From the human T2T-CHM13v2.0 reference genome, Homo sapiens: a stretch of 64,000 bases of DNA. The position numbers and the translations under genes were made by a program. Under the pieces are notes generated by a model. The model saw only the letters and a program-made list of their open reading frames with translations. It searched no databases and was not told where the DNA came from. Positions within the stretch are counted from its first letter, which is position 1, and every line of letters starts with the position of its first letter. Shown here piece after piece: positions 24 to 14,150 of this stretch. The stretch is taken from assembly GCF_009914755.1 (NCBI RefSeq), contig NC_060931.1. One strand, 5' to 3'.

Positions 24-494
<471 letters not shown>

Positions 495-4513: not shown

Positions 4514-6611
4514 TAAAATGGCTATAATAAGGATTAAGTACAATAAAGTTGATGGTGCACCTGACGGAAAGGTGGGATCGCAGTGCTAGTTGCTCTTTTC
4601 TCACCTTCAGATTTTATCTGAGAATGAAGAACATGCATTATGGTTTTGTTCCATAGAGAGCAACCCACATTTCCCTCTGCATTTTAAATTTTAGCAAAAC
4701 TCCAAGATCAAGAGCCTGTCTTAAATATTCAAAAAATGTATCATAAATAATGAAAATAAAATGAAATTGTCTTGGACTTCAATGAGCAAATCTCCATGCC
4801 TTCCACAATAGTGTTAAATAGACGGATGTCTTCTTTCATGTCAACGAGAAATAGTTTTCACAGTGGATAACTTATTTTAATATAATGAGTTAAAAATTGA
4901 AGAAGCATCTGCACCTGTCATTTCATTGTCATTAGAAGGAAAAAGTAGATTTTACAACACCAAAGTCAAAACTACTAGAAAATTGAAGAATATATCCTAC
5001 ATCAACACTAAAAGACTCCATCCTGTATGTTAATTCAGTGTCTTATTTGGAATCATGTTTCATTGATAAAGTATCTTGGTGGACCCCTAAAGCAGTGCAA
5101 ATTAAAACAAGATATTTCTCCTGGTATAGAAGATACATGAATAGCACTAATAAAAATAATCTAAGACCAAACCATCCATGATGTCATGGTATAGATTCTG
5201 TGGAATTAACAGTAAACTAACTGTTGGGGTATGAACATAACTGATTGTTTAGTTAAAAAAAAAGGTAATATTTCTGTTCATACTAACATAGGTCTTTGGG
5301 TGGTACTGATTGATCGATAAGAGGTAAAAAATCACTATATTAAGTCTATTGCCAACTTCATTCCAGAGTGAGGCATGGTAAATCATTTGTAATGAATCTA
5401 GTGGTGATGGCTTTCTAGGGGTTTTACTGTTTATCACATAATGTAAAGTAAATTCTAGAATGATTGGACTCATTTTAGTAGCTATAATCTACCCAAAATT
5501 CAGTATAAAAGAGAAAATATTAAGGACCTAAGAGGTATTAATCCACTTAAATGAATTTACATAATAAAAAATAAAATGAGAAAAATTCAGATAACGAGTC
5601 TTCCTTAAATAGGGAAGATTATATCATCTATTAGAAAATAACATATAGTAAAAGACAAAACAATGAGTTGAAGATTAAAAATAATTTCTTCTAGTGAGCA
5701 TTTTTAAAATATATGGTTTTTTAACATATAACCTTTATATGTACAGTTGAGATTTAATGTAATACATAAATGTTTACATCCACACATGTATACTATAGTA
5801 AAGATTTTAAAAATGAAGATTTAAAAACATGCTTGTAAATAATTTATGAAAAAAGAAGATGTCATATTGGAAAACTGAATAATTCTCAGAAATGAATAAT
5901 AAACAAAACACTACATATCGATTCTAGTAGAATTCTAGCAATTCTGGTAGCAATGAAACTTCTATAGAAAGAGTAAAGTATATTCTGTAAATTTTTTTTA
6001 TCAGAAAACAATAAAATCCGAAAATAAACAAGCCCAGAAACCTACTTAAGCACAAAGAAACGGAATGGAGAATACAGGAGAAAGTAAATAAATAAAATAT
6101 TTGCAGAAATTAATAAAATAGACTACAAACATACAATAGAAAGCATGGAAAGTAAGAAGTTTATTATTTGATAACTCCAATTCAAAATGCATATAAATAC
6201 TTTTAAATGAATGAATGAATAAGCATAAAGAAATAAAATAACACTGGCAAATTTAATCAGACATAAATTAAAAAGTAAGGAAGGCACAAATAAAAATTAA
6301 AAATTAAAATAGGAATACAGTTCAGGATAAAATAGATTATAAAGTTAACTAGAAAATTCCAATTACAAAATTAATTTATAAACTTGAAAAGTTATATATA
6401 ATAAACCATCTATATAAAATTAACCATGTAACTTCTTACAATTGGTTCATAAATATCTGAAGAATCCTATATTTTAAAATTTCAACCAGTAATTTAAAAA
6501 TCTTGTAATACCAGACTAAAAAAAGATAATTTACATTCCAACTCTTCCCATGAAGCTAATGTAACCTAAACATATGAAAGAGACATGACTCAGGTAAGAA
6601 AGGAACATACA

Positions 6612-7964
6612 CCCTCAGAAATAATACCACACATCTACAACCATCTGATCTTTGACAAACCTCACAAAAACAAGAAATGGGGAAAGGATTTCCTATTTAA
6701 TAAATGGTGCTGGGAAAACTGGCTAGCCATATGTAGAAAGCTGAAACTGGATCCCTTCCTTACACCTTATACAAAAATCAATTCAAGATGGATTAAAGAC
6801 TTAAATGTTAGACCTAAAACCATAAAAACCCTAGAAGAAAATCTAGGCAATACCATTCAGGACACAGGCATGGGCAAGGACTTCATGTCTAAAACACCAA
6901 AAGCAATGGCAACAAAAGCCAAACTTGCCAAATGGGATCTAATTAAACTAAAGAGCTTCTGCACAGCAAAAGAAACTACCACCAGAGTGAACAGGCAACC
7001 TACAGAATGGGAGAAGATTTTTGCAATCTACTCTTCTGACAAAAGGCTAATATCCAGAATCTATAAAGAACTCAAACAAATTTACAAGAAAAAAAACAAA
7101 CCCCATCAAAAAGTGGGCAAAGGATATGAACAGACACTTCTCAAAAGAAGACATTTATGCAGCCAAAAGACACATGAAAAAATGCTCATCATCACTGGCC
7201 ATCAGAGAAATGCAAATCAAAACCACAATGAGATACCATCTCATGCCAGTTAGAATGGCGATCATTAAAAAGTCAGGAAACAACAGGTGCTGGAGAGGAT
7301 GTGGAGAAATAGGAATGATTTTACACTGTTGGTGGGACTGTAAACTAGTTCAACCATTGTGGAAGACAGTGTGACAATTCCTCAAGGATCTAGAACTAGA
7401 AATACCATTTGACCCAGCCATCCCATTACTGGGTATATACCCAAAGGATTATAAATCATGCTGCTATAAAGACACATGCACACGTATGTTTATTGCGGCA
7501 CTATTCACAATAGCAAAGACTTGGAACCAATCCAAATGTCCATCAATGATGGACTGGATTAAGAAAATGTGGCACATATACACCATGGAATACTATGCAG
7601 CCATAAAAAAGGATGAGTTCATGTCCTTTTTAGGGACATGAATGAAGCTGGAAACCATCATTCTCAGCAAACTATCACAAGGACAAAAAACCAAACACCG
7701 CATGTTTTCACTCATAGGTGGGAACTGAACAATGAGAACACTTGGACATAGGAAGGGGAACATCACACACCAGGGCCTGTTTTGGGCTTGGGGGAGGGGG
7801 AAGGGATAGCATTAGGAGATATACCTAATGCAAATGATGAGTTAATGGGTGCAGCGCATGAACATGGCACATGTATACATATGTAACAAACCTGCACGTT
7901 GTGCACATGTACCCTAGAACTTAAAGTATAATAATAAAATAAATAATAAATAAATAGAAAAAAA
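6612..7964 (+). mobile_element. 5'-truncated L1PA (PA4/PA5-like): ORF2 C-terminus, 3' UTR, poly(A)
   Basis: ORFs 6585-7253 and 7126-7374 translate to L1 ORF2 (FNKWCWENW..., [13 protein letters not shown]); L1PA 3' end ...gtaccctagaacttaaagtataataat. Confidence 0.97.
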
Positions 7965-8220
7965 TTAACACTGGAAATTTTTTAAATATGGGATGTAAGT
8001 GCCAGATCAGAAGTTGTACTTAAGGATTTTATGTGACTCTCCTGTGTTAGCTGGAAACATCACCACAATAAGAAAGAGGCGACTCTAGAATTAGGAAGCA
8101 ATACTTCTGAATCATTATCAGTAATGTGATAAGGGTTACCATAAATTGCTTGATTTTACTGTGCTTCACTCACCACACTGAAAATGGGGTGATTAAAATT
8201 ACCTTCTCTTTAAAAAAAAA
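7965..8220 (+). other. L1 3' transduction (unique DNA, ATTAAA, second poly(A))
   Basis: TSD aagaaaggaacataca at 6596-6611 and 8221-8236 encloses both the L1 and this segment; ATTAAA 8192-8197; A-run 8212-8222. Confidence 0.9.
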
Positions 8221-8763
8221 AAGAAAGGAACATACAATTCAATTTTACTCATTAACATAAGTGTACAAATCCTAAACATTATATGATTAAACCAAGTACA
8301 TTAACATGTAAGACAAATCATCATGTACATAGCTAATTTTCTGCTGTTAAAAAATGTGTGGATGAAAAACAGAATAAGCATTAATCAAATTGATGTAATT
8401 CACCACTTATGAATTAATATGATTATTTCAATAATATGTAGAGTAACTGTAAGATGAAAATTAACACTCATTCACTGTAAAATTTAAAAATAATTAAGTG
8501 GCTAGAAGAGAACTTCCTGAACTTGAAAACATGTTCCATATATTTGAAAATCTATCCAACCCTACAGAACATATCTTTCTCATAGGTTACCTGTAAAAAT
8601 AATTATTTAACAAATCAAGGAAAAGACAAGGATGCCAACTATCACAGCTTCTTGAAACATGTTATAGAATTTCCTAGCCAATGGCAGTAAATTTGTCTTA
8701 AATAATGAGGTGAGCTTTAAAAGAAATAAACATGATGACTGTATTTTCCCTTAACTCAGTTAG

Positions 8764-8890
8764 GGATTTGGATCCTGCTCCTAATCCACCTCGGTTTCCA
8801 TCGCAGGTGATTAAAGCAACATTTGCCTATATCAGCAATTGTCATAAAACCAAGTTAAAAAGCATTTTAGAAATTCTTTCCAAAAGCCCT
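8764..8890 (+). pseudogene. ATM: Orphan copy of a 127-nt ATM coding exon (recalled as c.4110-4236; exon 28, or exon 30 in old numbering)
   Basis: ttttcccttaactcagttAG|GGATTTGGAT ... AAAAGCCCT|GTAAGT; open reading frame; no neighbouring ATM exons in window. Confidence 0.92.
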
Positions 8891-9762
8891 GTAAGTATAC
8901 ATGATGAGTTTAATAATAGAGCATTCCTTCTTTTTTAGGTAAAAAAAATCTTTGTAAGTACATCTTAAAGAGGAAAAGTAAACAAATGAAAAATTTATCT
9001 CATAATTAAAAAGGAAAACATTCATTTACAAGTTTAAATGGTATTTTAATTGTCAGCATTAATTGAAATATGTTACATATGAGAACAGAATCTTGTGACA
9101 CTTTAGTCATATATTAGCTCAGGGAATATATCTACTTTTTCATAGGAATATACTATTTTATTGTAGTTTACTTTCTGAAAATTAAATAAAATACAGTCAT
9201 CATTTGAAAAAGTTTTGCTCATAGACCAGTGAACTTCCAAAATGAAAATTTAGATTTTAATAACCCCCAAATTCAAAACTATTTTTCTACTGAAAAACTA
9301 TACTTTCAATAAAATCACAAATGACATATCACAGTCCAGATATATAAATCAGATTATCTAAATACCTTTCACCCTCAATAACTTAAATAATCTTAAATGA
9401 TCTTATAATAATTTTATTAAAAAATCTTATAAAGTTAAAAGGCAATTCCACAAATGAGCCTCAGTATTACTTCAGATCAGAATCAAAGCTCTATGCCAGT
9501 ACTGTAAAAGCAGTATTTTAAGACATGGCAATTAACACTTATTTAGACAGCGTGAAATTACATATGTGAAAGTACTTTCTCAGATATTATTACTATTTTA
9601 TATGCCCAGCATAGTAGGGCACATTAAAAAAAAAAATAAAGCATATTTTCAAGTAGCTTACAATCAAGCCAGGAAAACAACTCTAATGTTCATATACAAC
9701 TCAGAGACATTCACATCCAAATTAAATTGTACAGATAATAAAGTACAATAAAGAAAAGGTGG

Positions 9763-9859
9763 GGCTGGGTACGGTGGCTCATGCTTGTAAACCCAGCACT
9801 TTGGTTGGCCAACACGGGGGAATCACTTGAGGCCAGAAGTTCAAGACCAGCATGTGCAA
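9763..9859 (+). mobile_element. Partial Alu left monomer inside the ATM-derived insert
   Basis: ggctgggtacggtggctcatgcttgtaaacccagcactttgg... ends abruptly in the A-tail. Confidence 0.85.
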
Positions 9860-10219
9860 AAAAAATAAATAAATAAAAAATAAACATAATGAAAATAGCT
9901 GATTATATAATTGTCTACAATGAAAATTCAAGAGAATCTATAGAAAATGTATTATATTTCATTAAAAGATGTAGACAGAGCAATATATAAAGGTATAGAT
10001 AAAGGATTAATGTATAAGAATGAACTGCACTTTTATGTACAATCAGGAGTTAGGTAATTAAACTTTTTAAAATAACAATCATAGTAGCCATAAGTTACAT
10101 GATGCCTAGGAAAAAATTTAACCAGGATAATCCAAAATATTTATAGAAAAAAATTTAGGCCTTTTTTCTATGGCACTATATAAAGCTAGGCATTTTTTCC
10201 AATAGAGAAAGACAGACAA

Positions 10220-10424
10220 GGAGGAAGAGAGTGAGGGCAGTTGAGAGAGACAGTGAGAGAGACAGAGAGAGATAGACAAATTGGAAGACTTTTGACCTCA
10301 TGTTACTAGATGCAGAAGATTATTTAACATAGTACTATATCCATTTATAGTATAAAAAGATACACAGATGATGGATAGAGACATGATAGATGATAGATGA
10401 TGATGATGTTGTAGAGAGAGAGAG

Positions 10425-10452
<28 letters not shown>
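10220..10452. repeat. (GA)n / (GATA)n / (GACA)n simple repeats
   Basis: Directly visible. Confidence 0.9.
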
Positions 10453-10455
<3 letters not shown>

Positions 10456-11469
10456 CAGATAGACAGATAGACCGATATCTTCCTTAACTTAATAAAAAAT
10501 ATTCATTCTAAACCTCCAGAATATGATTACACTGGATTTGCAAAGTTAAGGATTTGTCATAGCATGTTTTGGCAAAAATTTGAAGAGATGAGCAGTCACT
10601 TGCTGTTGTACTTGCTGGTATCTTTGGAAAAAAATTAGAGTTTATTTTGCAAATAAACATGCCTGTTCCTTAGAATCCTGCAGCAATTTGACTTCTCTAG
10701 ATATAGTTTCTGTACAAACCATTACATATAACTGTCAAGGAATGGGCACATGAATGCTTATAGCAACACTATTTTGACAGCAAAACTTGGAAATATCCCA
10801 AATGCTCATCAGGAAGAATAGGAATATAGAATGGGCATGTAGTATATATGAAATACTCATAGTGTAGGTGAAACAATATGGATGTATGGTAGAAGCATAA
10901 TATTGAAAAAATATTTTAAGAGATGTGTATATATATATATATGCTTTTTTTGCATAAATCTCTAGTATAAGAAAAACTTTTGAAATAACATATACATTGG
11001 TGTGGTAACATTTTATTTTTTGAAAAGCAAAGCAATGATGAATGCGCCCAAGAGGAGAGGAGGCAAGGGCAGTGTTTGCTGAGAAGCACTAAAGGTTGTC
11101 TCAGTGCCATTTATGTTATGCATGTACTGAAGTAATATGTTGAAGACCTTGCACTTTCTCTTTTGTATCAACTGCTAGACAACATAATCACAAAGAAAGA
11201 AAGAATGTCAGGTTTAAAATACAGCTAACTAGAAACATAAATATGTAAAATGTAGTCATTAAAAAAGCTCAATGCATAGATTAAACAATAGATTAGATAG
11301 TGGTGAAGAAAGAATTATTGAAATGAATGATTACTGAATTGGAAGATATATTGTGGAGATTACAGAATTCAGCAAAGAGAAGAGAGCAAGTCAAAAAAAG
11401 AAAGATATGCAAACACACATTGCACGTGCTCTGAAAACACAAGCGGTAGTATACTTGTCATAATATTCA

Positions 11470-14150
11470 GGTCTTGTATATCTAATAATATTTTTAATAA
11501 TGTATATGATTTCTTAAAAAATATCTATTATGCTGAGGTTTCAAATTTGAGCAAAGTTGTTATGTTTTTACATTTTCTACTATGATTAATACATTTTTAT
11601 ATGTATGTATTTTTTCTTCATGGTTCATGTATTTTTTTTTGTATGTTTGTTTCTTTCCAGAAACTTAAGGTTTGATTTTGCCAGTTTTTTCATTATTTTC
11701 CAACATTTAAATTAATTTTTTTCCTTCAATTAAAAAAAGTTATTCTTACTTTTTCTGAATTCCTGTATTGAACACTTAACAAAATTATATATTTCTTGTT
11801 TGTTTCTAGGTGAACACCCTGAGGTAAATATATTTCCCCTCCAAGTACCATGTTAAATAAACTCCATAGGTTTGCTTTTGGTTTATTTTATTTTTTGGTT
11901 AATTTTAAAAATTTGTAATATTCATTATTATGTCCTCTTAAACCGATTAGTTATTTAGATTTTTTTTAATTTCCAGTTTTGCTTGTTTATTTGCTTTACT
12001 ACTACTTAGTTTTTTATTTTAAATATGATTGGTTATGGTTAGAAAATATTCTTTATATATTCTTAGACATTTGTTGACATGCATTGAGACCTACACAGGC
12101 TCGATTTTTCTAAATAGGTGCTTTAAAAATGTATATTATCATTTTGTTGAGTGCTGAATTATATAAGCAGGTAAGTCTTCGTATAAAAGGGGCATATTGA
12201 GTCCAAGCAAAATTTAAAAAAATAAATCCACAACTTGACACCTCCATATCTCAAAAAAAAGGCAATCTTAGCACCACCAAAAAATATAGATTTCCTGGAA
12301 AAAAATAACAATTAGGCTGACAACATATTGTATAACTCAGCATCCTATTGTTTGATTACTTCATACATATGGTTTGGGTAATTTAATGCTTCCTGAATAT
12401 CAATATTCATATCCTTCAACTATTAAAAGAATTCTCAGCCACTCTCTTCAAATATTGCTTGTCTTCTAGTCACTCTACTTTATCTTTCTCAAATTAGGAA
12501 TATGTTTTACTGTCTCATCCTGTCACACATGTATCTTTTCCCTTCTTTTACATATTATCTTTTTTTTCTTTTTTTTATTAAACTTTAAGTTCTAGGGTAC
12601 ATGCACACAACAGGTTTGTTACATAGGTATACATGTGCCATGTTGGTTTGCTGCACCCATCAATTCATCATTTACATCAGGTATTTCTCCTAATGCTATC
12701 CCTCCTCCAGTCCCCCACCTGCCGACCGGCCCCAGTGTGTGATGTTTCCCGCCCTGTGTGCATGTGTTCTCATCGTTCAACTCCCACTTATGAATGAAAA
12801 CATGTGGTGTTTGGTTTTCTGCCCTTGTGATAGTCCTCTAGATCCTTGAGGAATCGCCACACTGTCTTCCACAATGGTTGAACTAATTTACACTCCCACC
12901 AACAGTGTAAAAGCATTCCTATTTCTCCACATCTTCTCCAACATCTATTGTTTCCTGACTTTTTAATGATTACCATTCTAACTGGCATGAGATGGTATCT
13001 CATTGTGGTTTTGATTTGCATTTCTCTGATGGCCAGTGATGATGAGCATGTTTTCATACGTCTGTTGGCTGCATAAACGTCCTCTTTTGAGAAGTGTCTG
13101 TTTATATCCTTTTACATATTTTCTATCTCATATTTCTGTGGTGCATTCTAGATAGTTTCTGCATCTCTATCTTATAATTTAGTAACTCATCTTCAAGTTG
13201 TACATGATCTAAACTTTTAGGCTATTGGTTTTGACAGACATATGGCTTCTGTTTGGTTCTTTCTCAAATATGCCTGCTTCTTATTCACTGTTCATGTCTT
13301 TTTATTATTTCCTTTTGTAATGCCTTTAATCATTTCAGATGTTTTTGTAATTTTCACCTACAGTTTGACTCTCTTAAATTATCCAAATTCTAATCTGTTG
13401 TTACTTTGCCTGCTCACTGTTTACCCATGACATGCTGGCACTAGACCCATGTGCTGTGTGCTTGTGTATTTCATCATTTTTAATGGATGTATGATTTACA
13501 CAGTAAAAGGAATAGAACTTACAGTTTTCTGAGTTTTAATAAATCAGCAAACCTGCAACCATCATTATTTAAGAAATTTTCTTTACAAACAGCCCCAATT
13601 AACTGCTACCCAGAGGTAAGTACTGTTTTGATTTCTTTTACCATACATTAGTTTTGCCTGTATTTGTGATTTACATAAATATACATCTTAAGCATGCACT
13701 CTTTTGTCTTTGCTTTGTTTCTGTTCAACATAATTTTTAGCTTCATTCATGTTGCTGCATGTGTCCATATTTTCTTTACCTTAATGTCTATGTATTAATT
13801 TAATTATATGAGTACACTTCAATATGCTTATTCATAACACCCAGATTTGGCTAAAGTGAATAAACTGTGATGATCATTCTAATATAATTCTGTAAGGACA
13901 TTTGCTTTAATTCATTTTTTGTAAACACCTATCAAGTGAATTGCTGGATGTTTGCGCAGGCCTTTTTAAATATTATTAAGAGACTGCCAAACTGTTTTCC
14001 CAAGTAGCTGTACTATTTTCTATTTCACAGACAATGTGCAAGAGTATCAGTTGCTCATGGTTCTCACCAGCATTTGATATTGTTTGGTCCATTTAATTTT
14101 CATCATTGTAATGCATGTGTCCTTGTATTTTAATTGCTAATTTTGTATTA
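11470..14150 (-). mobile_element. Ancient L1M fragments, minus strand, surrounding the L1PA at 12561-13108
   Basis: T-rich degenerate L1 motifs, including a 3' UTR-like stretch at 13.5-14.1 kb. Confidence 0.55.
12561..13108 (-). mobile_element. 5'-truncated L1PA with an internal deletion
   Basis: L1PA 3' end on minus strand; TSD cttttacatatt(a/t)tct at 12545-12560 and 13109-13124; junction near 12835. Confidence 0.93.

What the first reader, a model, noticed from the sequence alone, without database searches (positions are those of the whole stretch)
8719..9887. Unspliced ATM exon-plus-intron fragment retrotransposed in trans (raw material for exon shuffling)
Seen: a 127-nt open exon (8764-8890) with intact AG and GTAAGT sits in a ~1.14-kb insert that interrupts an old L1. 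The insert has an A-tail from 9858 and a ~15-bp imperfect TSD beginning at an L1 endonuclease-type site (ttt|aaaag), but contains no L1 sequence of its own. Knowledge: the peptide matches ATM (recalled [42 protein letters not shown]; here H>R and H>Q). Inference: L1 machinery copied an intron-containing RNA in trans, so this is neither a processed pseudogene nor a segmental duplication. I recall such an ATM copy on chromosome 7 being published (Ejima and Yang 2003), so it is probably known, but it is the most striking object in the window.
Basis: partly seen in the sequence, partly recalled or inferred. Interest (0 to 1): 0.85.

Follow-up and report, generated by a model that had tools for sequence, protein, structure and literature searches.

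The report
ATM exon fragment retrocopied with inversion
A 1.1-kb piece of the ATM gene (one exon with intron on both sides) was copied onto chromosome 7 by LINE-1 machinery from an RNA read off the strand opposite to ATM, and its front half was flipped during insertion; it is real, unusual, and probably already published.

Summary
Window 8764-8890 is a 127-nt exon with AG and GTAAGT intact. Its peptide is 40 of 42 identical to ATM residues 1371-1412. The insert has an A-rich tail, a 15-20 bp target-site duplication at a TTT|AAAA site, and contains no L1 sequence. It lies inside a very degraded L1 ORF2.

- Window 8734-9190 is ATM sense, chr11:108296458-108296914, 97% identical.
- Window 9188-9859 is ATM antisense, chr11:108296471 down to 108295790, 95% identical.

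The blocks share 11-14 nt of source sequence. There are 3 nt of microhomology at the inversion joint and 5 nt (GATGA) where the 5' duplication meets ATM sequence. This is the twin-priming signature.

The A-tail sits on the antisense block, so the template was a polyadenylated RNA antisense to ATM that ended inside an Alu left arm. It was not unspliced ATM pre-mRNA.

No minus-strand L1 ORF2 lies within 33 kb upstream at the source. That favours mobilisation in trans over an orphan 3' transduction. Divergence is 3.1%, roughly 13-16 My.

This is probably the case of Ejima and Yang 2003. That paper could not be read here.

The parts
8221..8718 (+). Left flank: degraded ancient L1 ORF2 (reverse-transcriptase region), the host element
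   Evidence: tblastn of natural L1 ORF2 (from L030/L028): residues 510-570 on 8221-8409 (E 0.006) and 621-651 on 8561-8653. The top HSP was reached by 0 of 100 shuffles.
8719..8738 (+). 5' copy of the target-site duplication. It is preceded by TTT, giving a TTT|AAAA endonuclease-type site. Its last 5 nt (GATGA, 8734-8738) are also the first 5 nt of ATM homology.
   Evidence: 17 of 20 identical to 9873-9892, core 15-mer 14 of 15. ATM alignment starts at 8734.
8734..9190 (+). Block A: ATM sense strand, chr11:108296458-108296914. This is the inverted 5' part of the cDNA. It holds the 3' end of the upstream intron (8734-8763), the exon, and 300 nt of the downstream intron.
   Evidence: 445 of 459 identical, plus/plus.
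8764..8890 (+). ATM exon copy, 127 nt, computed as c.4110-4236 and encoding residues 1371-1412. AG and GTAAGT are intact. There are three base changes giving H1380R and H1384Q. The polypyrimidine tract is 2 nt shorter and there is a T to A change at -5.
9188..9190 (.). Inversion joint. The 3 nt AAA could belong to either block.
9188..9859 (+). Block B: ATM antisense strand, chr11:108296471 down to 108295790 (upstream intron read backwards). This is the 3' part of the cDNA, joined to the A-tail. Its first 11-14 nt are the reverse complement of the first 11-14 nt of block A.
   Evidence: 647 of 682 identical, plus/minus..
9763..9859 (+). About 97 nt of an Alu left arm, in sense orientation, at the 3' end of the copied RNA. 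The source Alu in the ATM intron is full length and continues past this point.
   Evidence: Weak Rfam Metazoa_SRP match to model positions 1-44 at 9764-9809, E 0.36, below the gathering score. 49 of the 52 genome matches cover only this part.
9860..9877 (+). A-rich tail with no counterpart at the ATM locus (non-templated poly(A), now decayed to A/TAAA)
9873..9892 (+). 3' copy of the target-site duplication. Its leading A residues merge with the tail.
9893..10168 (+). Right flank: continuation of the same degraded L1 ORF2
   Evidence: tblastn residues 685-706 on 9898-9963 and 753-773 on 10106-10168. A single HSP for residues 621-706 crosses the rebuilt empty site in one frame.

Best explanation
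An RNA transcribed from the strand opposite to ATM covered at least chr11:108296914 down to 108295790. That stretch holds part of the intron downstream of one ATM exon, the exon itself, and the upstream intron as far as an Alu. The RNA ended about 100 nt into the Alu and carried a poly(A) tail. LINE-1 ORF2 protein used it as a template.

Shown:
- The endonuclease-type site TTT|AAAA, a 15-20 bp target-site duplication, and a non-templated A-tail.
- Two ATM blocks in opposite orientation, with 11-14 nt of shared source sequence.
- Microhomology of 3 nt at the inversion joint and 5 nt at the 5' joint.

Inferred (twin-priming model):
- The bottom strand was nicked and primed on the poly(A), then copied the RNA up to about position 108296471.
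- The top-strand 3' end (...GATGA) annealed to an internal complementary pentamer of the same RNA at 108296458-462 and copied the RNA's 5' part up to 108296914.
- The two cDNAs were joined at an AAA microhomology. This left the exon-bearing 5' part inverted, so that it reads as ATM sense on the plus strand.

Also inferred:
- The RNA was not an L1 read-through, so mobilisation was in trans.
- The event happened roughly 13-16 million years ago.
- The copy has since drifted neutrally and is not used as an exon.
For: - Identity: the exon peptide is 40 of 42 identical to ATM, E 1.3e-20.
- Copy number: in the whole-genome search the only non-Alu matches besides self were two places on chr11, on opposite strands. 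The tool scored 40 of 2504 candidates, so this is a lower bound.
- Blocks and ends: searches give block A plus/plus at 445 of 459, block B plus/minus at 647 of 682, an overlap of 108296458-468..471, an AAA joint, and GATGA shared between the duplication end and the block A start.
- Tail: the source Alu continues with non-A sequence where the chr7 copy switches to A-rich tail, so the tail is not templated.
- Target-site duplication: 17 of 20, core 14 of 15, at TTT|AAAA.
- Known hallmarks: 5' inversion with small indels at the breakpoint, duplications of 4-20 bp, a poly(A) tail and TTTT/AA-type sites are listed as hallmarks of LINE-1-mediated insertion, and inversions are reported for processed pseudogenes too (passages of PMC4859970). 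Twin priming joined by microhomology is described in passages of PMC10760644.
- Source locus: tblastn of two L1 ORF2 translations over chr11:108280000-108329999 found three places, none on the minus strand above 108296914.
- Divergence: 35 of 1114 aligned positions, 6 of them in CpG context, with 4 gap events.
Against: - No canonical poly(A) signal lies within 35 nt of the RNA's 3' end. The nearest AATAAA is about 105 nt upstream. How the RNA came to end and be adenylated inside an Alu is unexplained.
- No antisense transcript or promoter was shown here, and the RNA's 5' end is unknown.
- The ORF2-based scan cannot see L1 pieces made only of UTR or ORF1, nor an L1 that was polymorphic and later lost. 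Cis mobilisation as an orphan transduction is therefore not excluded.
- Twin priming is a model that, according to the 2023 review passage, still needs experimental validation.
- The host-L1 call rests on weak protein hits (E 0.001-0.013). My colinear-chain statistic was uninformative: 14 of 100 shuffles reached the observed value.
- The age depends on substitution rates recalled from memory, not measured here. No primate orthologue could be examined.
Confidence: 0.8

Rival explanations
1. Orphan 3' transduction (cis). A retrotransposition-competent L1 once sat on the minus strand in an ATM intron above chr11:108296914. Its read-through transcript was severely 5'-truncated or twin-primed within the flanking sequence, so no L1 sequence remains. 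The source L1 was later lost or never fixed.
For: Orphan transductions that hold only read-through sequence are documented, one from a non-reference L1 (passages of PMC10760644; table of PMC4859970). The insert has all the ORF2p scars. The ORF2-only scan would miss UTR-only remnants.
Against: No minus-strand L1 ORF2 lies between 108296915 and 108329999 in this genome. The only upstream hit is an old plus-strand fragment, 50% amino-acid identity, at 108306114-108306509. There is no second A-tract and no L1 3' end inside the insert.
Confidence: 0.1
2. One reading: an unspliced sense ATM pre-mRNA fragment was copied in trans.
For: The exon with both splice sites reads in ATM sense on the plus strand.
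Against: The A-tail and the endonuclease-type site are attached to the antisense block. The sense block abuts the 5' duplication with only a 5-nt microhomology and no A or T run. A sense template would put a sense block next to the tail.
Confidence: 0.03
3. Template switching between two RNAs. ORF2p copied an antisense RNA, then jumped to a sense ATM pre-mRNA (for example within a sense/antisense duplex) and copied the exon region.
For: ORF2p template switching is known from U6/L1 chimeras (passage of PMC4859970). It would also produce opposite orientations.
Against: It does not predict that the outer end of block A (108296458) lies within 14 nt of the inner end of block B (108296471). It also does not predict that block A begins with the last 5 nt of the target-site duplication. 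Twin priming predicts both.
Confidence: 0.04
4. DNA-level duplicative transposition or segmental duplication of ATM sequence, with an inversion.
For: Intron sequence is present, and the insert is two blocks.
Against: Homology ends inside the duplications. The insert has a non-templated A-tail, a TTT|AAAA site, a 15-20 bp duplication, and an exact in-frame rejoining of the host L1 ORF2 when the insert is removed.
Confidence: 0.02

Closest known systems
ATM segment on chromosome 7 of Ejima and Yang, Hum Mol Genet 2003;12:1321 (title seen only in reference lists; text not held; that it concerns this ATM copy is recalled)
   Same: By its title it reports trans mobilisation of genomic DNA by a retrotransposon as a route to exon shuffling.
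   Different: I could not check whether the paper describes the inversion, the antisense template, the Alu 3' end or the dating. Those points may or may not be new.
Processed pseudogenes with 5' inversion (L1 ORF2p acting in trans on cellular mRNA)
   Same: Target-site duplication, endonuclease-type site, poly(A) tail, 5' inversion with a small indel or overlap, and no L1 sequence (passages of PMC4859970).
   Different: The template here was not a spliced mRNA. It holds intron sequence on both sides of an exon and ran antisense to the gene.
L1 3' transduction and orphan transduction
   Same: Moves unique genomic sequence, including exons with intron flanks, and can leave no L1 sequence.
   Different: No source L1 in the required position and orientation at the ATM locus.
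Twin-primed L1 insertions (Ostertag and Kazazian 2001; paper not held; model as summarised in PMC10760644)
   Same: The 3' block is joined to the tail, the inverted 5' block abuts the 5' duplication, there is a short overlap at the breakpoint, and both joints show microhomology.
   Different: The template is not L1.
CFTR exon 9 copies dispersed in the human genome (Rozmahel et al. 1997; seen only as a reference; content recalled)
   Same: An exon with intron flanks copied to other chromosomes in association with L1.
   Different: As I recall it, those copies travel with L1 sequence and were further amplified by duplication. The ATM copy is single and carries no L1 sequence.

Membership tests
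L1 ORF2p-mediated (target-primed) insertion | Target-site duplication of about 4-20 bp flanking the insert | tested here: met
   8719-8738 against 9873-9892, 17 of 20; core 15-mer 14 of 15. Size range from PMC4859970.
L1 ORF2p-mediated (target-primed) insertion | Insertion at a TTTT/AA-like endonuclease site | tested here: met
   The plus strand reads TTT|AAAAG at 8716-8723, so the bottom strand reads TTTT/AAA. Exact nick position is ambiguous by up to 5 nt because the tail merges with the duplication.
L1 ORF2p-mediated (target-primed) insertion | 3' poly(A) tail not encoded at the source | tested here: met
   9860-9877 is A-rich, while the source continues with non-A Alu sequence.
Twin-priming 5' inversion | Inverted 5' block next to the 5' duplication and direct 3' block next to the tail, both from one contiguous source | tested here: met
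   Blocks A and B map to chr11:108295790-108296914 contiguously, in opposite orientations.
Twin-priming 5' inversion | Small duplication or deletion at the inversion point, and microhomology at the joints | tested here: met
   11-14 nt overlap; AAA at the inversion joint; GATGA at the 5' joint.
Twin-priming 5' inversion | Both blocks made in one event rather than by a later inversion | not testable with these tools
   Needs outgroup genomes. Block divergences are 2.2% and 3.7%, which does not decide it.
Processed pseudogene | Introns removed; copy of a mature mRNA in sense | tested here: not met
   Intron sequence lies on both sides of the exon, and the block joined to the tail is antisense to ATM.
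L1 3' transduction (including orphan) | A source L1 immediately upstream, in the same orientation as the transduced RNA | tested here: not met
   No minus-strand ORF2 hit in chr11:108296915-108329999. UTR-only or lost elements would not be seen.
Segmental or DNA-level duplication | Homology running past the insertion scars, with no tail and no duplication | tested here: not met
   Homology is confined to 8734-9859.
Host element is L1 | Flanks align colinearly to L1 ORF2 and rejoin when the insert is removed | tested here: met
   the scores are weak. DNA-level and Pfam/PDB searches were negative.

The most novel reading that the evidence does not exclude
The vehicle was an antisense transcript, and that is why an exon with both splice sites survived: ATM's splice signals are invisible on the opposite strand. 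On this reading, antisense or read-through transcription across genes, not rare unspliced pre-mRNA, feeds L1-driven exon copying in trans. In addition, the RNA ended in about 97 nt of sense Alu left arm plus poly(A). That resembles the end of an Alu or left-monomer RNA and may have given this otherwise ordinary RNA access to nascent ORF2p. The SRP9/14 ribosome-docking route this assumes is recalled, not tested. If neither point is in the 2003 paper, both are new and testable.
Probability: 0.2. Interest if true: 0.55.

Novelty: already known. Interest (0 to 1): 0.4.

Why it matters
It is a clean natural example showing that L1 machinery can copy an exon together with its splice sites without carrying any L1 sequence. 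That is the raw step needed for exon shuffling in trans. The junctions show that the template ran antisense to the gene and that the insert was built by two priming events. This changes which cellular RNAs should be looked for as donors.

There is also a practical point. A 97%-identical copy of one ATM coding exon sits on chromosome 7. It differs by three bases in the exon and could attract mis-mapped reads or primers in ATM testing.

The copy itself shows no sign of use. Its exon length is not a multiple of three, it lies on the strand opposite to the only annotated transcript, and its changes look neutral.

Tried and rejected
- Pfam on 65 stop-to-stop ORFs of at least 40 aa from window 6000-13500: no L1 family. 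Seven weak unrelated matches, all far below cut-off.
- PDB and Pfam searches with the short flank peptides 8586-8690 and 9877-9990 (Pfam also with 8668-8754 and 9944-10057): nothing meaningful.
- Whole-genome DNA search with the flanks. The left flank (539 nt) gave self plus 3 short weak matches. The right flank (543 nt) gave self plus 63 short matches, all inside query 324-530. No long L1 match was found, though the tool skips very common words.
- My colinear-chain score for the host L1 was reached by 14 of 100 shuffles, so I dropped it as uninformative. The single-HSP score was reached by 0 of 100.
- Rfam over 8600-10000: two sub-threshold matches only, mir-306 at E 0.81 (taken as chance) and the SRP 5' domain at E 0.36, which lies in the Alu.
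- An A-rich priming site in the source. The Alu's middle A-rich linker lies 23 nt beyond the copy's end and those 23 nt are absent from chr7, so internal priming there was rejected.
- Literature. Ejima and Yang 2003 and Ostertag and Kazazian 2001 are not held. Of the 7 papers citing the former I opened 3, and they give only the reference or a one-line mention. Searches for Ejima + twin priming + ATM, for 'Ejima and Yang', for ATM + exon shuffling + in trans + chromosome 7 + LINE-1, and for ATM + exon 28 + pseudogene + chromosome 7 + 7p11 found no description of this copy.
- No primate genome is available, so no empty site was examined.

Full report
**What is there**

The window is T2T-CHM13 chr7:53940001-54004000.

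At 8762-8896 the plus strand reads AG, then a 127-nt open stretch (8764-8890), then GTAAGT. The 42 codons at 8765-8890 match human ATM residues 1371-1412 in four sets of solved ATM chains. Identity is 40 of 42 and E is 1.3e-20. The two differences are H to R and H to Q. From those residue numbers the exon is c.4110-4236. Its exon number is recalled only: 28 in the current 63-exon numbering, 30 in the older one.

**Relation to ATM**

I searched the window's own genome with 8738-9860. It returned 52 matches from 40 scored of 2504 candidates, so counts are lower bounds.
- One match is the query itself.
- 49 matches cover only query 977-1123, which is an Alu.
- Two matches lie at the ATM locus on chr11, on opposite strands.

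Local BLAST of window 8600-10000 against the fetched ATM stretch gave three HSPs.

| Window | chr11 | Orientation | Identity |
|---|---|---|---|
| 8734-9190 | 108296458-108296914 | plus/plus | 445 of 459 |
| 9188-9859 | 108296471 down to 108295790 | plus/minus | 647 of 682 |

The third HSP is a weak 113-nt Alu-to-Alu hit.

So the insert is ATM-derived from end to end and homology does not pass the proposed duplications. It consists of two blocks in opposite orientation.

**Junctions**

- The 5' target-site duplication is 8719-8738 and the 3' copy is 9873-9892. They match at 17 of 20 positions, and the core 15-mer matches at 14 of 15.
- The duplication is preceded by TTT, so the site reads TTT|AAAA. 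This is the LINE-1 endonuclease type, as in the TTTT/AA sites tabulated in PMC4859970.
- The last five bases of the 5' duplication (GATGA) are also the first five bases of block A at the ATM locus.
- At the inversion joint three A residues could belong to either block.
- In ATM coordinates block A starts at 108296458 and block B starts at 108296468-471. So 11-14 nt are present twice, in inverted orientation.
- Block B ends about 100 nt into an Alu that is full length in the ATM intron. There the source continues with ordinary Alu sequence, whereas chr7 switches to an A-rich run. The tail is therefore not templated by the source DNA.

**Reading**

The following are the listed hallmarks of LINE-1-mediated insertion: a duplication of 4-20 bp, an endonuclease-type site, a poly(A) tail, and a 5'-end inversion with a small indel at the breakpoint. 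Inversions are reported for processed pseudogenes as well as for L1 and SVA (passages of PMC4859970).

[quoted passage not shown] That passage adds that the model still needs experimental validation.

The anatomy here fits the model point by point.
- The block next to the tail is the direct 3' part.
- The block next to the 5' duplication is inverted.
- That inverted block begins exactly where the top-strand 3' end (...GATGA) could pair with the RNA.
- The two blocks overlap by a few nucleotides at the source.

The consequence is that the RNA had the sequence of block B. It ran antisense to ATM from at least 108296914 down to 108295790. The exon reads in ATM sense on chr7 only because the 5' part of the cDNA was flipped. 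'Unspliced ATM pre-mRNA' is therefore the wrong description. ATM's splice sites are not splice sites on an antisense RNA, so no escape from splicing is needed.

**Cis or trans**

An orphan 3' transduction would need an L1 upstream of the RNA, that is, on the minus strand above 108296914. I took natural L1 ORF2 frames from the genome (loci L028 and L030) and ran tblastn over chr11:108280000-108329999. It found three places.
- Minus strand at 108281147-108282866. This lies downstream of the RNA's 3' end, the wrong side.
- An old plus-strand fragment at 108306114-108306509, 50% amino-acid identity. This is the wrong orientation.

Nothing on the minus strand was found in the 33 kb above the segment. 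This favours trans mobilisation. It has limits: the scan cannot see UTR-only pieces or an L1 that was polymorphic and later lost.

**Host element**

DNA searches of the flanks, Pfam on 65 ORFs, and PDB/Pfam searches with short flank peptides did not identify L1.

tblastn with the natural ORF2 did give colinear plus-strand hits on both sides.

| ORF2 residues | Window |
|---|---|
| 510-570 | 8221-8409 |
| 621-651 | 8561-8653 |
| 685-706 | 9898-9963 |
| 753-773 | 10106-10168 |

The spacing across the insert fits only if about 1.15 kb is removed. When 8739-9892 is removed in a script, a single HSP for residues 621-706 crosses the joint in one frame, at E 0.013. It pairs degraded versions of two reverse-transcriptase motifs.

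None of 100 shuffles reached the top HSP score (28.9 bits, against a maximum of 25.0 in shuffles). A chain statistic I devised was uninformative, with 14 of 100 shuffles reaching the observed value.

I accept 'interrupts an old L1', with moderate confidence.

**Age and fate**

With the microhomologies trimmed, the two copies differ at 35 of 1114 aligned positions and by 4 gap events. Six of the differences are in CpG context. That is 3.1%, or 3.2% with Jukes-Cantor correction.

| Substitution rate per site per year, per lineage | Age |
|---|---|
| 0.5e-9 | 32 My |
| 1.0-1.2e-9 | 13-16 My |
| 2.2e-9 | 7 My |

The rates are recalled from memory, and no outgroup could be examined.

The exon carries three base changes, which alter two codons. 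The acceptor's pyrimidine tract is 2 nt shorter, with a T to A change at -5. The exon's 127 nt is not a multiple of three.

By the hub's table the only transcript here, LINC01446, runs on the opposite strand, and the insert lies in its intron. So exon shuffling is only a potential here and is not realised.

**Unexplained**

Why the RNA ended and was adenylated inside an Alu is not explained. No canonical signal lies within 35 nt of the end, and the nearest AATAAA is about 105 nt upstream.

The terminal 97 nt are an Alu left arm in sense orientation. Rfam gives only a sub-threshold match to the SRP RNA 5' domain (E 0.36). That such an end could have helped the RNA reach ORF2p is a speculation based on recalled Alu biology.

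**Known or new**

I saw it only in the reference lists of three of the citing papers I opened. Its text is not held.

I did not verify it. Four further searches found no other description of this copy.

I therefore file the object as already known. The antisense-template and twin-priming details may or may not be in that paper.

Noticed in passing
window 6573-7719 (+): A much younger L1 ORF2 3' portion, 83-85% amino-acid identity to natural L1 copies, including a 227-aa open frame at 6570-7250. It coincides with the NCBI-masked stretch 6609-7993 and lies just upstream of the old L1 that hosts the ATM insert.
   Followed up: partly
window 12836-13111 (-): Another L1 ORF2 C-terminal fragment on the minus strand, 80-84% amino-acid identity. 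It matches the masked stretch 12726-13128.
   Followed up: no
window about 10201-10407: All 63 non-self genome matches of the right flank fall in this stretch. Most cover about 75 nt at roughly 10204-10278 (76-82% identity), often several per locus in clusters on chr20, chr14, chr15, chr22 and chr2. This looks like a short dispersed or satellite-associated repeat. Its family is not identified.
   Followed up: no
window 9617-9630 against L003 1053-1072: An A-run is 11 nt long in the chr7 copy and 19 nt long in the ATM intron. This is a length-variable mononucleotide tract.
   Followed up: no
chr11:108281147-108282866 (L035), minus strand: A sizeable L1 ORF2 remnant in an ATM intron, antisense to ATM, 55-87% amino-acid identity by piece. 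It lies downstream of the mobilised RNA's 3' end, so it is not a candidate source for transduction.
   Followed up: partly
window 8765-8890: A 97%-identical copy of an ATM coding exon that is not in the hub's gene table for this window. It could attract mis-mapped reads or primers in ATM testing.
   Followed up: no
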